This document shows, in pieces, positions 1,309 to 5,300 of a stretch of 64,000 nt of DNA; position 1 is the stretch's first letter, and each line of letters starts with the position of its first letter. The notes under the pieces are model-generated. The model made no database searches. It saw only the letters and a list, made by a program, of their open reading frames with translations, and was not told the DNA's origin. Position numbers and translations under genes: made by a program. Source of the stretch: a virus. Taxonomy: Duplodnaviria > Caudoviricetes. Where the stretch lies: IMG/VR virus record IMGVR_UViG_3300003155_000119, positions 32,001 through 96,000 of that record; one strand, given 5' to 3'.

Positions 1309-2041
1309 TAAATTATTATTCTAGTCAAATAATGATATTCCTTTTCTTGAAGCAAAAGTTGTTGTGCATTAGCCAACTATAAAAGAAATTGCTCTTATTG
1401 GAGAAGATATTTTCTTCAGAGGGAGTGAGCTATTAACTTTATCTAAAGAAAATATTCCGAATGTGGGCAAAAATGATTTAAAGGGTTTTAGTAATTTTGA
1501 TATAATTATGTCAGTTATAAATAATAAAGATTTGAGTTCATAGAAAGAAAAAATAAATCTATTATTAACTTTGTCTCTTTTATTTCCTGATTATAAAATA
1601 AAATTATCTAATAGCTAGATAATTTTGACAAAAGATGAAAAAGAATTTTTTATTAATTCGTCTAATCACGAGTCTTTCAAGAAACTTTTAATACAAATGC
1701 TTTGTCTAGATTATAATAAGAAAGATGATAAAAAATATAATCCAGCAAATGGTAAAGCTGCGGAAATAGCAGAAAAAATAAGAAAAGGCAAATAGAAAGT
1801 AAACTAGTTAAAAAATAATAAATAGAATCAAGATATTCATATTTTATTATAGTATGTTTCTATTTTGTCTGTTGGTTTATAGAAAGATAAGAATTAGTTA
1901 ATGGAATATACAATTCCTCAACTTTATGACGAATATAAAAGATTTGAAATGAAATATTAGTATGATATGTACGTTCAACAGAAAATGCTTGGAGCAAAAA
2001 ATCTCAAAGAGATAAAATTCTGGATGGATGATATATATTAA
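1301..2041 (+). CDS. Tail-region protein (possible tail assembly factor), 246 aa, about 11 TAG codons, absent from ORF track
   Basis: MNNKLLF(Q)SNNDIPFLEAKVVVH(Q)PTIKEIALIGE...FWMDDIY-TAA. Fills the gap between its neighbours exactly. Confidence 0.75.
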
Positions 2042-2088
2042 AATTTATTAAATTAATTTAATAACTTTTTTAAGGAGGAAAAAATCTT

Positions 2089-5000
2089 ATGAAATTTGGC
2101 GTGAAACTAAATTAAGTCTTGCGCTTATATACCTTATCCTAATACCATAGGGGTTCTTAAATAAGAGCTAACGGGGAATGGGTGTCAATGTCACCAGAAT
2201 CCCGTGTCATGGCCGCAAGGCAGCGATGTAGAGACTAGAATATATTCGTAGGTTTGCTATTGGTACGCAAATCGAAACAGGTATAGGTGCGGTTTAAGGT
2301 CTGGCCGCATTTAAGAGATAGTCCATAGTTAATACTATGAAGAGAAATATGTAATGTTGTATTCCGTGCTAAATCTCCTATGAAGATTGGCAAGACAACA
2401 TTCCAAACTGGACAACCAGTTATTATGCTTGATACTGCAACTGCTTCCACTCTGGAAGGCGCTGCAACGACAGTCTACGCGCAGGGTTAAAAATAGCTCC
2501 ATATATAAGTGATTATATATGAAAACTGCTCTAATTGCTGGAAACTCTTATAAAAAATATAAGACAATCAGCAGCGAAGTAATTAAGAATAAAATATTTT
2601 GGGAGGCATATTGATTATGTTATTACAAATTAATTAGTTTATTCCTGAAGTAAAAGACCGTTATTTCATTTGTGACAATGGCGATTTATTTACTGATTTT
2701 GGTCAAAGAAAAATGAAAAATAGTACAAAAAATGGATATGTAAAGAACTCATTAGTCTTAAAAGATGGAACATCTAAATCATTTTTTAGACACCGTCTAG
2801 TTATGTTATGCTTTTGTCCCAACGAAAAAGCAAATGAATTACAAGTAAATCATATAGACGGAAATAAAGAAAATAATAGTATAGAAAATTTAGAATGGTG
2901 TACTAATCAAGAGAATAGAATTCATGCTGTAAAAATAGGACTTGCCGCGAGATTAATCGGTGAAGAAAATCCTGCTAGTAAATTAAAGGAAGAAGATGTG
3001 CTAGATATTATAAATGATTTATTAAATCATATTCCTTATTCTCAAATAATGAAAAAATATGAATGTTCTAAAAGTACTATTTCATCAATAAAGAATAAAA
3101 GAAACTGGTCTTATTTGACTAAAGATATTGATTTTAATTAAACGTTCAACGACTATCCTTTATGGAGTAGATTACAAGCTATTGGTAATTGAAATGGGCA
3201 GTCTCTCTTGGCGAGAGAAAGATATAGTCTAATCTCATATGTGAATATGAGCTGTCGAAAGACGCATATAGTGTAGCGAACTATATGGAATATTAATGGG
3301 ACGCGGAAATGTTCGTTTAATTGCGTGGGATGAAAAGAAAATTACTCACCGGCTCACGAATCTTAGTAATAAGATAAAGAAAAATCTCGTGAATTGCTGG
3401 GACACCCAAAATCATTTTGGGCAATCAGCAGCCAAGGGGCGCATATAAAATAAATGCGTTCAAGGTTCAACGACTATCCTTTATGGAGTAGGGCTAAGCG
3501 GCCCGAAGCGCGAGACTCCTATTTTTAGGATGAAGATATAGTCTCATCTAAGTGGATATATAAAGACTTAGTAGTTCATTAGAGAACACATAGAAATTAG
3601 CGACTTCTATGGAAGATACACTCGTTATGAGGTGAGAAAACATTAACCTTCACCGTCACCGATGCTCTTCTCAGCGCTACTGGATTTGCAATCCTGTCTG
3701 GCGCTGGATTAATTACACAAAATACTGGAACTAAAGTTCACTATCATGTAACAACTAATACAACTTGTGCAGCTACTGAAATTGATTTAACTGATGCTCT
3801 CACACCTTTTGGCACAGGTGCTCAAATTTGTGATACTGCACCTATTTATGTCATTGAAACAGAAGCAGATGGTTCTATCACTGGAACTTTCTTAACTAAC
3901 GTAACTGTTGACGTGGGTGGAAAGAAATTAAAGGGTACCTTTACAGCGGGTAAAGCTGTCACTGTTGACTATTATGTGCTAGTCGATGGTGCTGGTATTG
4001 ACGAAATTCAGATTGATGCTGAGAACTTCGCAGGATACTTCTATGTAGAAGCGGATACTTTATTCCGTCGGCAGTCTGACGGTGTTGACCTGCCCTGCAA
4101 CATCACTCTACCTAACGTTAAGATTCAGTCTAACTTCACCTTCTCTATGGCTTCAACTGGAGATCCAAGTGAACTAATGCGCTTGGCGGCTTAAATAAAA
4201 GCTGAAAAATTTAGTTCTTTAATTGCGGGAAAACCCTTAGAGCTTTTACAACTAAAGCAATATAGAAATATATTGACTGGCGAGGGTAATGACTAAGGTA
4301 TAGTAAAATCGTAAAAGATTGGGTAATCCGCAGCAAAGATTTCGTATTTGACTTTTTATAAAATATAAGATATAATTAAAATAAAAAAAGGAGAAATGAA
4401 AGAGTGGAAAAACGTATACATGACTTCATTCCAGAAATAAAAGATTATTATACAATTACTTCAGATGGATTAATATACAGTGATAATTCTGGATTAATGA
4501 AAACTAGAGATAGAGCAGGAACTGACTATCAAATAATTAATTTAAGCAAATTAGACGGAAGTAAAAGGACTTTTAGGGTTCACCGTTTAGTAATGATGGC
4601 TTTCAATCCTGTTAAAAATATGAATGAATTAGAAGTAAATCATATAGATGGAAATAAAAAAAATAATAAATTAGAAAATCTTGAATGGTGTACTGCTAGT
4701 GAAAATCAAATTCATGCTTTTAAAACTGGACTAAATAAACCAAGAAAAGGAGAAGAAAGCAATCTCTCTAAATTGACTGAAGATGATGTAAAAAAAGTAT
4801 TTGAGTTAAGAGAAAAAGGTCTTTTACAAAAAGAAATTGCTGAAATAGTTGGATGTACAAAAAGTAATATATCTTGTATTTTAAGAAAAAAGTCTTGGAA
4901 GAAATAATGTTCAACGACTATCCTTTATGGAGTAGCTCTAAGTAGAGCGAAATGGGAACTTAAAAGATATAGTCTCAACTATACTGAAAAGTATAGCAGT

Positions 5001-5237
5001 TCATAAAGAACGCATATAGATTAACGACCTATATGGAAGATATTGACATTCGATTTCACAATGGACGCCTTCCCTGGCGTTACTTATTTCAATCCTGGAC
5101 GGCAAGTTTTGTGCGCAATGCAGGTGTTGAATAACTACAACGCTGGTGCGGATACTATTGAATCTGTATTCTTACATGATGATGCTGAAGTTATTGCGGA
5201 GGCAGAGAACGATTCTGCGGAAGGCGCCGGAGGTTAA
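2089..5237 (+). CDS. Major tail tube protein, spliced from 5 exons (2089-2102, 2340-2487, 3299-3331, 3631-4170, 5046-5237), 308 aa
   Basis: RBS AAGGAGG. Exons sum to 927 nt, in frame: MKFGV/REICNVVFRAK...YAQG/GRGNVRLIAWD/GEKTLTFTVTDAL...ASTGDPS/TFDFTMDAF. Lies upstream of the tape measure gene and is followed by a terminator. Confidence 0.8.
2103..2339 (+). ncRNA. Group I intron 1 (237 nt, no ORF)
   Basis: 5' exon ends in T and the intron ends in G. Core motifs AACGGGGAA, AATCCCGTG, GTAGAGACTA, AAGAGATAGTCC. Guide TCTTGCGC pairs with junction GCGT|AAGA. Confidence 0.9.
2488..3298 (+). ncRNA. Group I intron 2 (811 nt) with HNH endonuclease
   Basis: GGT|TAA start. Core motifs AATTGCTGGAAA, AATCAGCAGC, TTCAACGACTA, AAGATATAGTCT. 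Terminal G3298 restores YAQG-GRGN. Confidence 0.9.
2617..3141 (+). CDS. Intron-encoded HNH homing endonuclease, 174 aa (TAG at 2635 read through)
   Basis: HRLV...VNHIDGNKENN...NLEWCT..EN..HA motif. RBS GGGAGG at 2601. The N-terminus IN(Q)FIPEVKDRYFI aligns with IHDFIPEIKDYYTI of the intron-4 HNH. Confidence 0.88.
3332..3630 (+). ncRNA. Group I intron 3 (about 299 nt, no ORF); junction uncertain by 1 nt
   Basis: Core motifs AATTGCTGGGA, AATCAGCAGCC, TTCAACGACTA, AAGATATAGTCT. Guide CTCACCGGCTCACG (3345-3358) pairs with CGTGGGAT|GGTGAG. Confidence 0.85.
4348..4376 (+). promoter_or_regulatory. Sigma70/sigmaA-type promoter inside intron 4
   Basis: TTGACT-N17-TATAAT followed by RBS AAAGGAG and the HNH start. 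Confidence 0.8.
4404..4907 (+). CDS. Intron-encoded HNH homing endonuclease with C-terminal HTH, 167 aa
   Basis: VHRLV...EVNHIDGNKKNN..ENLEWCT.SEN..HA motif. C-terminal LLQKEIAEIVGCTKSNIS helix-turn-helix. Confidence 0.9.
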   Translation: MEKRIHDFIPEIKDYYTITSDGLIYSDNSGLMKTRDRAGTDYQIINLSKLDGSKRTFRVHRLVMMAFNPVKNMNELEVNHIDGNKKNNKLENLEWCTASENQIHAFKTGLNKPRKGEESNLSKLTEDDVKKVFELREKGLLQKEIAEIVGCTKSNISCILRKKSWKK

Positions 5238-5300
5238 TAAGGAAGCTTTATAACAATTCCTTTTATGAGCAAATAAGTAGGAAAAAGATATAATAATTAC

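What the first reader, a model, noticed from the sequence alone, without database searches (positions are those of the whole stretch)
3326..3640. Intron 3 cannot be spliced with both canonical ends without losing guide-paired codons
Seen: the guide CTCACC-GG-CTCACG aligns without gaps to CGTGGG-NN-GGTGAG. Option A: U.G 5' site after T3331 with the intron ending in A3630 (omega-A), giving W-D-G-E-K. Option B: omega-G3629 with a 5' site after A3330 (A.G pair), giving W-E-G-E-K. Option C: both ends canonical (T3331, G3636), but this deletes Gly-Glu and discards the P10 pairing. P7 keeps the normal GACTA/TAGTC pairing. Established: U.G and omega-G are near-universal in group I introns. A or B would be a rare splice-site variant in a presumably essential gene.
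Basis: partly seen in the sequence, partly recalled or inferred. Interest (0 to 1): 0.8.

Follow-up and report, generated by a model that had tools for sequence, protein, structure and literature searches.

The report
Phage intron spliced after A, not U
A self-splicing (group I) intron in the tail-tube gene of a chicken-gut phage most likely cuts its 5' end after an A instead of the almost universal U while keeping the normal final G; this rare rule-break has so far been shown by experiment only in Bacillus IStrons.

Summary
Bases 3331/2-3629/30 hold a high-scoring group I intron (Rfam 81.9 bits) in a YomU-type tail-tube gene, which is split by four such introns in a TAG=Gln phage. With a U-ended 5' exon (T3331) and a G-ended intron (G3629), the ligated mRNA is one base too long.

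Seven further diverged copies at the same site were found in public contigs; five of them include the 3' end.
- The guide G faces the A in 8/8 copies.
- The G aligned with the omega-G of canonical sibling introns is invariant. The next base is A (5) or G (1), as expected for the third position of a Glu GAR codon.
- A canonical sibling intron begins and ends at the homologous bases.
- In one relative, a second intron's guide pairs 8/8 with the option-B junction and 7/8 with option A.
- Close homologues have Glu at this position in 108/108 cases.

Option C fails: four of the five relatives with a 3' end lack its G, and it deletes conserved Gly-Glu.

No RNA from this exact copy was available, so B remains an inference (about 0.72). 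The closest precedent is the group B IStrons (BcISt1), which splice after G with U as the first intron base.

The parts
2089..2102 (+). Exon 1 of the tail-tube (YomU_Tube) gene, ATG at 2089, ends with U2102
   Evidence: Sequence; joint 2102->2340 in RNA-library contigs X16, X17, X19; homologues start MKFGV
2103..2339 (+). Intron 1 (group I, canonical U-1 and omega-G2339)
   Evidence: Joint 'skips 237, GA..TG'; same intron in L001 and L003
2340..2487 (+). Exon 2 (148 nt)
   Evidence: phrog_2729 match; RNA-library contigs
2488..3298 (+). Intron 2 (group I, canonical ends) carrying an HNH homing-endonuclease ORF at 2617-3141 with an in-frame TAG
   Evidence: Joint 2487->3299 'TA..TG' in X16 and X17; HNH_3 and phrog_59 hits; partial RF00028 hits
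3299..3330 (+). Exon 3 (32 nt under option B): GRGNVRLIAW plus the first two bases of the Glu codon; last base A3330
   Evidence: Homologue alignment; joined form 3330->3630 present in a relative's contig in RNA library X17
3331..3629 (+). Intron 3 (299 nt, IA-type group I ribozyme, no ORF) as delimited by option B: first base U3331, last base omega-G3629
   Evidence: RF00028 81.9 bits; homology of both ends with canonical siblings; 8-copy comparison
3324..3331 (+). P1 5' strand: CGTGGG pairs with 3353-3358; A3330 faces G3352 (or is bulged); U3331 pairs with G3351 (or with G3352)
3345..3358 (+). Internal guide: P10 guide 3345-3350, G3351, G3352, P1 guide 3353-3358
   Evidence: P10 guide covaries with the Gly codon in relatives (TCACT with GGT, TCGCT with GGC)
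3472..3476 (+). P7 5' strand GACTA, containing the G of the G-C guanosine-binding pair
   Evidence: identical in all copies and in canonical siblings
3539..3543 (+). P7 3' strand TAGTC
3629..3629 (+). Omega-G
   Evidence: Invariant column in alignment A1, aligned with the RNA-verified omega-G of introns 2 and 4
3630..4170 (+). Exon 4 (541 nt under option B); A3630 completes the Glu codon; GGTGAG 3631-3636 pairs with the P10 guide
   Evidence: phrog_2729 and PF27173 match; 4,903 homologues
4171..5045 (+). Intron 4 (group I, canonical U4170.G, omega-G5045) with an HNH ORF at 4404-4907
   Evidence: Joint 4170->5046 'GA..TG' in X19
5046..5237 (+). Exon 5, ending in a stop codon
   Evidence: Spliced CDS is 927 nt, 308 aa, colinear with intronless homologues

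Best explanation
Intron 3 is a functional IA-type group I intron covering 3331-3629. Its own ends are those of an ordinary intron of its family: it starts with U and ends with omega-G3629, which binds the unchanged G-C pocket in P7. It sits, however, behind the second base of a Glu codon, so the last exon base is A3330 rather than U. Guanosine attack therefore occurs at the A3330-U3331 bond. A3330 either faces the invariant guide G3352 as a purine-purine opposition or is bulged while U3331 forms the wobble with G3352; in the second case the cut lies one base 5' of the canonical position. Exon ligation after G3629 restores TGG GAA GGT GAG, i.e. W-E-G-E-K. What is shown: the sequence, the homology of the ends, the conservation and covariation patterns, and the protein conservation. 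What is inferred: that splicing actually happens at these bonds, and the geometry at the cleavage site.
For: (1) In 8 diverged copies at the same site, the guide G faces A(-1) in 8/8. The partner of U(+1) varies (A in 5, G in 3), like an ordinary helix pair.
(2) 3' junctions are always G|R-GGN-GAR. The G is invariant and aligns with the omega-G of the canonical siblings I2, I4 and L007 (9/9). For I2 and I4, joints at exactly these omega-G sites occur in RNA-library contigs of relatives. The following base is A in 5 copies and G in L109, i.e. synonymous GAA/GAG.
(3) The canonical sibling L007, inserted 4 nt downstream after GGT, starts with the same TTG. Its U(-1) occupies the column of A(-1).
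(4) P7 GACTA/TAGTC is identical in all copies, so the pocket is the normal guanosine pocket.
(5) In L025 a second intron begins 7 nt further on. Its guide pairs 8/8 with the option-B ligated junction but 7/8 (U.U) with option A.
(6) A second, unrelated intron lineage in the same gene (L002/L003, L304, L306, L025b) has A(-1) opposite the guide G, no U nearby, omega-G, and compensatory changes that fix the register.
(7) Glu follows Trp in 108/108 close homologues. Intronless relatives read TGG GAG GGC or TGG GAA GGC. The option-B CDS is colinear with homologues.
(8) Precedent: the BcISt1 IStron splices after G with U as first intron base, shown by RT-PCR sequencing (PMC4227781).
Against: There is no RNA of this copy. 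The only contig with the 3330->3630 joint is from a relative about 89% identical in exon 4, and it may simply lack the intron.
U(+1) and the guide G are both invariant and can form a textbook U.G wobble if A is bulged (95.8% of cells paired). By the canonical rule that would place the cut after U, which is option A.
The 14-nt guide pairs better with the option-A product (U:R pair) than with option B (purine opposite purine).
Asp occurs at this position in 10 of 86 distant family representatives and in L010, so Asp would be tolerated.
No compensating change was seen by eye in the one junction compared, J4/5, in four copies (not scripted; J8/7 not examined).
In Tetrahymena, a non-U at -1 cripples the first step (my own knowledge: Barfod & Cech 1989; Doudna et al. 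1989).
Confidence: 0.72

Rival explanations
1. Option A: canonical 5' cut after U3331 (U.G wobble with A3330 mismatched or bulged) and a 3' cut after A3630 (omega-A), giving TGG GAT GGT = W-D-G-E-K.
For: U(+1) and the guide G are invariant, and the bulged-A register pairs 95.8% of cells. The guide is contiguous with the option-A product. Asp is tolerated in some family members.
Against: Omega would be A in 5 copies and G in one, with an unchanged G-C pocket. The preceding G, invariant and aligned with the siblings' omega-G, would have no role. In the no-bulge register, U would pair with A (not G) in 5/8 copies. The L025 downstream guide mismatches the Asp junction. All 108 close homologues have Glu. 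The intron start would be shifted by one base relative to the canonical sibling.
Confidence: 0.13
2. Option C: both ends canonical (cut after U3331, omega = G3636), deleting Gly-Glu (W-D-K-T).
For: It is the only in-frame combination with U-1 and a terminal G in the window.
Against: L021, L025, L170 and L303 read GGTGAA, so the required G is absent. Gly-Glu-Lys is nearly invariant in about 270 homologues. The phrog_2729 profile leaves 11 positions for exon 3 and starts exon 4 at the Gly. P10 would be lost.
Confidence: 0.02
3. The intron copy splices canonically (after U3331 and after G3629), or not at all, and yields a frameshifted, dead tube mRNA. Under this reading the gene is defective in this genome, or tube protein comes from rare mis-splicing.
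For: This is what textbook rules predict for the sequence. There is no RNA evidence for this copy.
Against: The same arrangement with an intact downstream frame is kept in six diverged complete copies from independent samples, some on contigs of 121-178 kb. The tube protein is essential and the rest of the gene is intact. The ribozyme core scores highest of the four introns.
Confidence: 0.13

Closest known systems
Group B IStrons, e.g. BcISt1 of Bacillus cereus ATCC 10987 (Tourasse, Stabell & Kolsto 2014, PMC4227781)
   Same: IA2-type group I ribozyme whose 5' exon ends in a purine. A U that can pair with the guide G is the first base of the intron, so the cut lies one base 5' of the usual place. 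The terminal G is normal. Splicing after the purine was proven there by sequencing RT-PCR products.
   Different: There the -1 base is G and is Watson-Crick paired, and the element carries an IS200/IS605- or IS607-type transposon and inserts at a tetranucleotide target. Here -1 is A with no Watson-Crick partner, the intron has no IS, and relatives carry an intron ORF that was not searched against any family library. It sits in a phage structural gene. Splicing is untested.
Staphylococcus phage Twort orf142 (tail tube gene) with three group I introns (Landthaler & Shub 1999; cited in PMC11878797 and PMC10136302)
   Same: A phage tail-tube gene interrupted by several IA2 group I introns, with a very short internal exon (23 nt there, 32 nt here).
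   Different: As far as I know the Twort introns have canonical U-1 and omega-G. The tube proteins were not shown here to be related.
Leu.3Cg tRNA introns of Proteobacteria (bioRxiv 10.1101/2020.01.27.920355)
   Same: A natural class of group I introns lacking U at -1, inferred from sequence only.
   Different: C-1 forms a Watson-Crick pair with the guide G. The host is a tRNA, the subgroup is IC3, and there is no U at +1.
Coxiella burnetii Cbu.L1917 (Raghavan et al. 2007, J Bacteriol 189:6572; my own knowledge, not read here)
   Same: A natural self-splicing group I intron that breaks one of the two terminal rules. It is the precedent for the rival option A (omega-A).
   Different: The break is at the 3' end, in an rRNA gene. 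Here the invariant G before the purine argues that omega is G.

Membership tests
Group I intron (Rfam RF00028), IA-type | Conserved catalytic core P3-P9 scoring above the family threshold | tested here: met
   81.9 bits against a gathering score of 50, full model 1-253
Group I intron (Rfam RF00028), IA-type | Guanosine-binding G-C pair in P7 | tested here: met
   GACTA 3472-3476 / TAGTC 3539-3543, the same letters as the Tetrahymena P7 (my own knowledge); identical in all copies
Group I intron (Rfam RF00028), IA-type | P1 formed by the 5' exon end and an internal guide sequence | tested here: met
   6 bp CGTGGG/CTCACG kept in 8/8 copies, with one compensatory double change
Group I intron (Rfam RF00028), IA-type | U as last base of the 5' exon, in a U.G wobble with the guide | tested here: not met
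   Under the best-supported boundaries -1 is A3330 in 8/8 copies; a U follows as the first intron base
Group I intron (Rfam RF00028), IA-type | G as last intron base (omega-G) | tested here: met
   G3629 lies in an invariant column aligned with the omega-G of siblings for which matching joints occur in RNA-library contigs
Group I intron (Rfam RF00028), IA-type | Self-splicing with exact exon ligation | not testable with these tools
   No RNA of this copy. The joined form was seen only in a relative's contig, which may lack the intron
Group B IStron-like shifted 5' splice site (PMC4227781) | 5' exon ends in a purine and U is the first intron base, shown by comparison with element-free alleles | tested here: met
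   Intronless alleles read TGG GAG GGC or TGG GAA GGC; intron-bearing alleles read TGGGA|T...G|R GGN
Group B IStron-like shifted 5' splice site (PMC4227781) | IS200/IS605- or IS607-type transposon module inside the 3' part of the intron | tested here: not met
   Intron 3 is 299 nt with no ORF. The ORF that related copies carry in an internal loop was not searched
YomU_Tube tail tube protein (PF27173 / phrog_2729), host gene | Profile match over the whole spliced protein, and SPbeta-like neighbours | tested here: met
   phrog_2729 E 4e-27 on exon 4. PF27173 is precomputed on homologues, which have YomW, YomV, YomO and tape-measure neighbours. The 308-aa product is colinear with homologues

The most novel reading that the evidence does not exclude
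Two unrelated lineages of phage group I introns in the same tail-tube motif (W-E-G-E-K) really do splice after an adenosine that faces the conserved guide G. In the second lineage there is no U anywhere near the site. If so, a purine-purine A.G opposition, which like G.U leaves the guide G's 2-amino group unpaired, can stand in for the 'universal' U.G wobble. It would do so in an otherwise ordinary IA ribozyme core, without the IS context of IStrons.
Probability: 0.45. Interest if true: 0.72.

Novelty: new variant of a known kind. Interest (0 to 1): 0.58.

Why it matters
[quoted passage not shown] They are also what annotation tools and ribozyme engineers rely on. The one experimentally supported purine-at-minus-1 case I found is the group B IStrons.

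Here the same break appears in classical phage introns, in at least eight diverged copies. A second lineage has no U at all. This suggests that 5' site choice in IA ribozymes is more flexible than assumed, and that introns can colonise sites without a U.

It gives a compact 299-nt natural system, with canonical siblings differing only in exon context, for asking how the cleavage site is chosen. In practice it shows that exon boundaries in intron-rich phage genes cannot be called by the U/G rule alone.

Tried and rejected
RNA evidence. Four RNA-library runs from chicken or animal gut were laid.
- None covers the 5' part of intron 3 (3332-3442) at 90% likeness or more.
- The 3330->3630 joint comes from one low-depth contig (4.2x) of a relative with 60 differences in exon 4, so it cannot show splicing of this copy.

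Database searches that gave little.
- Exact searches for the window's two junctions in IMG/VR found nothing.
- GenBank phages hold no close relative; only the generic catalytic core matches.
Only L109, L136 and L170 were useful.

Other points.
- Rfam's own P1 assignment (pairing within 3313-3335) would cut inside conserved codons, so I rejected it.
- Classic papers could not be opened and are cited from my own knowledge: Doudna et al. 1989, Barfod & Cech 1989, Karbstein et al. 2007, Hicks et al. 2011.
- A programmed +1 frameshift on a canonically spliced mRNA with one extra base was considered and dropped. The sequence contexts differ between copies (GAU AGG UGA versus GAU GGG CGA) and none resembles a known shift site.
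- An altered nucleoside pocket for omega-A was rejected because P7 is unchanged.

Full report
**Setting.** The window is phage DNA that reads TAG as an amino acid. Frames open only with TAG=Q, for example the HNH ORF in intron 2. The best DNA holders are chicken-gut metagenomes. The gene at 2089-5237 encodes a tail-tube protein of the SPbeta YomU type. Exon 4 hits phrog_2729 at E 4e-27. Its 4,903 homologues carry PF27173 YomU_Tube and lie beside YomW, YomV, YomO and a tape-measure gene.

The gene is split by four group I introns. Exact borders for introns 1, 2 and 4 come from contigs of RNA libraries that join 2102 to 2340, 2487 to 3299 and 4170 to 5046. Each skipped part follows a U and ends in TG. 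In run X16 the joined forms (depth 180 and 348) stand beside intron-containing contigs (83 and 37). This suggests, but does not prove, real splicing of introns 1 and 2 in a relative: several strains may be present, and the intron-2 contig is a variant without the endonuclease ORF.

**The observation.** The exon strand CGTGGG (3324-3329) pairs with CTCACG (3353-3358). A3330 and T3331 lie opposite G3352 and G3351. GGTGAG (3631-3636) pairs with CTCACC (3345-3350). The intron tail reads ..TTATG(3629) A(3630). Using U3331 and G3629 together gives one base too many and an immediate stop. The paradox is therefore real.

**Homologues.** The residue after Ile-Ala-Trp is Glu in all 108 close homologues that span the site. 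Among 50%-identity cluster representatives it is Glu in 74, Asp in 10 and Ser in 2. Intron-free relatives read TGG GAG GGC (L001, 95% identical protein) or TGG GAA GGC. One allele without an intron at this site reads TGG GAC GGT (L010). Glu is thus expected, but Asp is not excluded.

**More copies of the same intron.** Scanning IMG/VR and JGI contigs for the core and guide gave seven further, clearly diverged copies at the same codon: L021, L025, L034, L109, L136, L170 and L303.
- All eight read TGGGA then T.
- The guide base opposite the A is G in 8/8. The base opposite the T is A in five and G in three.
- One exon change (GCC for GCG) is matched by a guide change.
- Six copies, counting the window's, include the 3' end. 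All read G, then a purine, then GGN GAR. The purine is A five times and G once (L109), exactly the synonymous pair of a Glu codon.

**Homology with canonical siblings.** L007-L009 carry an intron with the same core, inserted four bases downstream after GGT. It has a normal U.G and a tail ending in ..ATG before GAG.
- Aligned with family 1, its first bases (TTG) match the family's first bases, and its U(-1) falls in the column of the family's A(-1).
- At the 3' end, alignment A1 of the tails of introns 2 and 4, L007 and six family-1 copies has one invariant G at the very end. This is the omega-G of the three canonical introns. For introns 2 and 4, the joints seen in RNA-library contigs of relatives lie exactly there.
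- P7 is letter-for-letter the same in all copies.

The intron proper therefore runs from U3331 to G3629, as in its relatives. What differs is the exon base in front of it.

**An independent readout.** In L025 a second intron of another lineage starts only 7 nt after the first, leaving a micro-exon AGGTGAA. Its P1 must use the ligated junction of the first intron. Its guide pairs 8/8 with the option-B product and 7/8, with a U.U clash at the disputed base, with the option-A product. In members of that lineage without an upstream intron, this helix position covaries with the Glu codon's third base: A with T, G with C.

**A second lineage with the same anomaly.** That lineage (L002/L003, L304, L306, L025b) sits after GAA of the next Glu codon.
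- Eight base pairs, with compensatory changes at the Gly codon's third base, are followed by A(-1) opposite a conserved guide G. A 3-5 bp extension follows, and the intron ends in omega-G.
- No U is available near the site.
- In three of the four the borders are unique.
- The intron is common: the cluster of its downstream ORF has 68 members.

Natural introns with A at -1 facing the guide G therefore seem to exist in these phages.

**What remains open.** Two P1 registers fit. In the first, A faces G and U(+1) pairs with A or G; 79.5% of cells are paired, and there is covariation further into the stem. In the second, A is bulged and U(+1) makes an invariant U.G wobble; 95.8% of cells are paired, with little covariation. 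Here, though, it would mean an omega that varies between A and G in front of an unchanged guanosine pocket, and an unexplained invariant G before it. Option C is excluded because four of the five relatives with a 3' end lack its G.

**Literature.**
- A C-1 class in tRNA-Leu genes has been inferred but not tested (bioRxiv 10.1101/2020.01.27.920355).
- Most relevant, group B IStrons end their 5' exon in G and have the U as first intron base. For BcISt1 this was confirmed by sequencing ligated exons and intron circles, and the authors note a one-base shift relative to the U-G pair (PMC4227781).
- P1 extension and P10 are not strictly required for splicing (PMC7877785). This fits the weak conservation of P10 here.
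- Twort orf142, a tail-tube gene, has three group I introns and a 23-nt exon (PMC11878797, PMC10136302).

**Verdict.** This rests on comparative inference, and no RNA from this copy was seen. The spliced product under B is a 308-aa protein colinear with intron-free homologues.

Noticed in passing
L003 1370-2595; L002; L304 1265-2503; L306 1273-2503; L025 3006-4241: A second group I intron lineage, carrying a 255- or 303-aa ORF of unknown family, sits after the GAA codon of W-E-G-E|K. It has A(-1) opposite the conserved guide G, no U nearby, a normal omega-G, and compensatory changes that fix the P1 register. This is a clearer breach of the U.G rule than intron 3.
   Followed up: partly
L025 2727-4241: Two group I introns are separated by a 7-nt micro-exon (2999-3005). 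The downstream intron's P1 spans the upstream intron's ligated junction, so splicing must be ordered (upstream first).
   Followed up: partly
window 3326-3640 and loci L007, L003, L109: Intron insertion hot spot. Four different insertion points lie within about 20 nt of the W-E-G-E-K/R-T-L/V motif: after GA (this intron), after GGT (L007), after GAA (L003 type), and after ACG GT (L109 second intron, canonical). The same ribozyme family occupies two of them, 4 nt apart.
   Followed up: partly
window 3144-3170, 3465-3491, 4909-4935: An identical 27-nt core segment (P7 to P7.1 region) is repeated in introns 2, 3 and 4. It caused cross-joins between introns in the laid contigs (for example 3481->4221) and could support recombination or exon skipping.
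   Followed up: no
window 2000-5300 (runs X16, X17, X19): RNA-library contigs of relatives join exons exactly at the predicted canonical sites of introns 1, 2 and 4. In X16 the joined and intron-containing forms co-occur. X16 holds an intron-2 variant without the HNH ORF (17 other letters replace 2581-3461).
   Followed up: partly
window 2617-3141: The HNH homing-endonuclease ORF of intron 2 has an in-frame TAG at codon 7, so it depends on the phage's TAG=Gln reading. The paralogous ORF in intron 4 (4404-4907) has none.
   Followed up: no
L021, L034, L136, L170 (internal loop of the intron-3 family): Relatives of intron 3 carry an ORF of unexamined family inserted in the P5/P6 region. The window's copy is ORF-less (299 nt), and L007's ORF appears broken by stops, consistent with the usual gain-and-decay cycle of homing endonuclease genes.
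   Followed up: no
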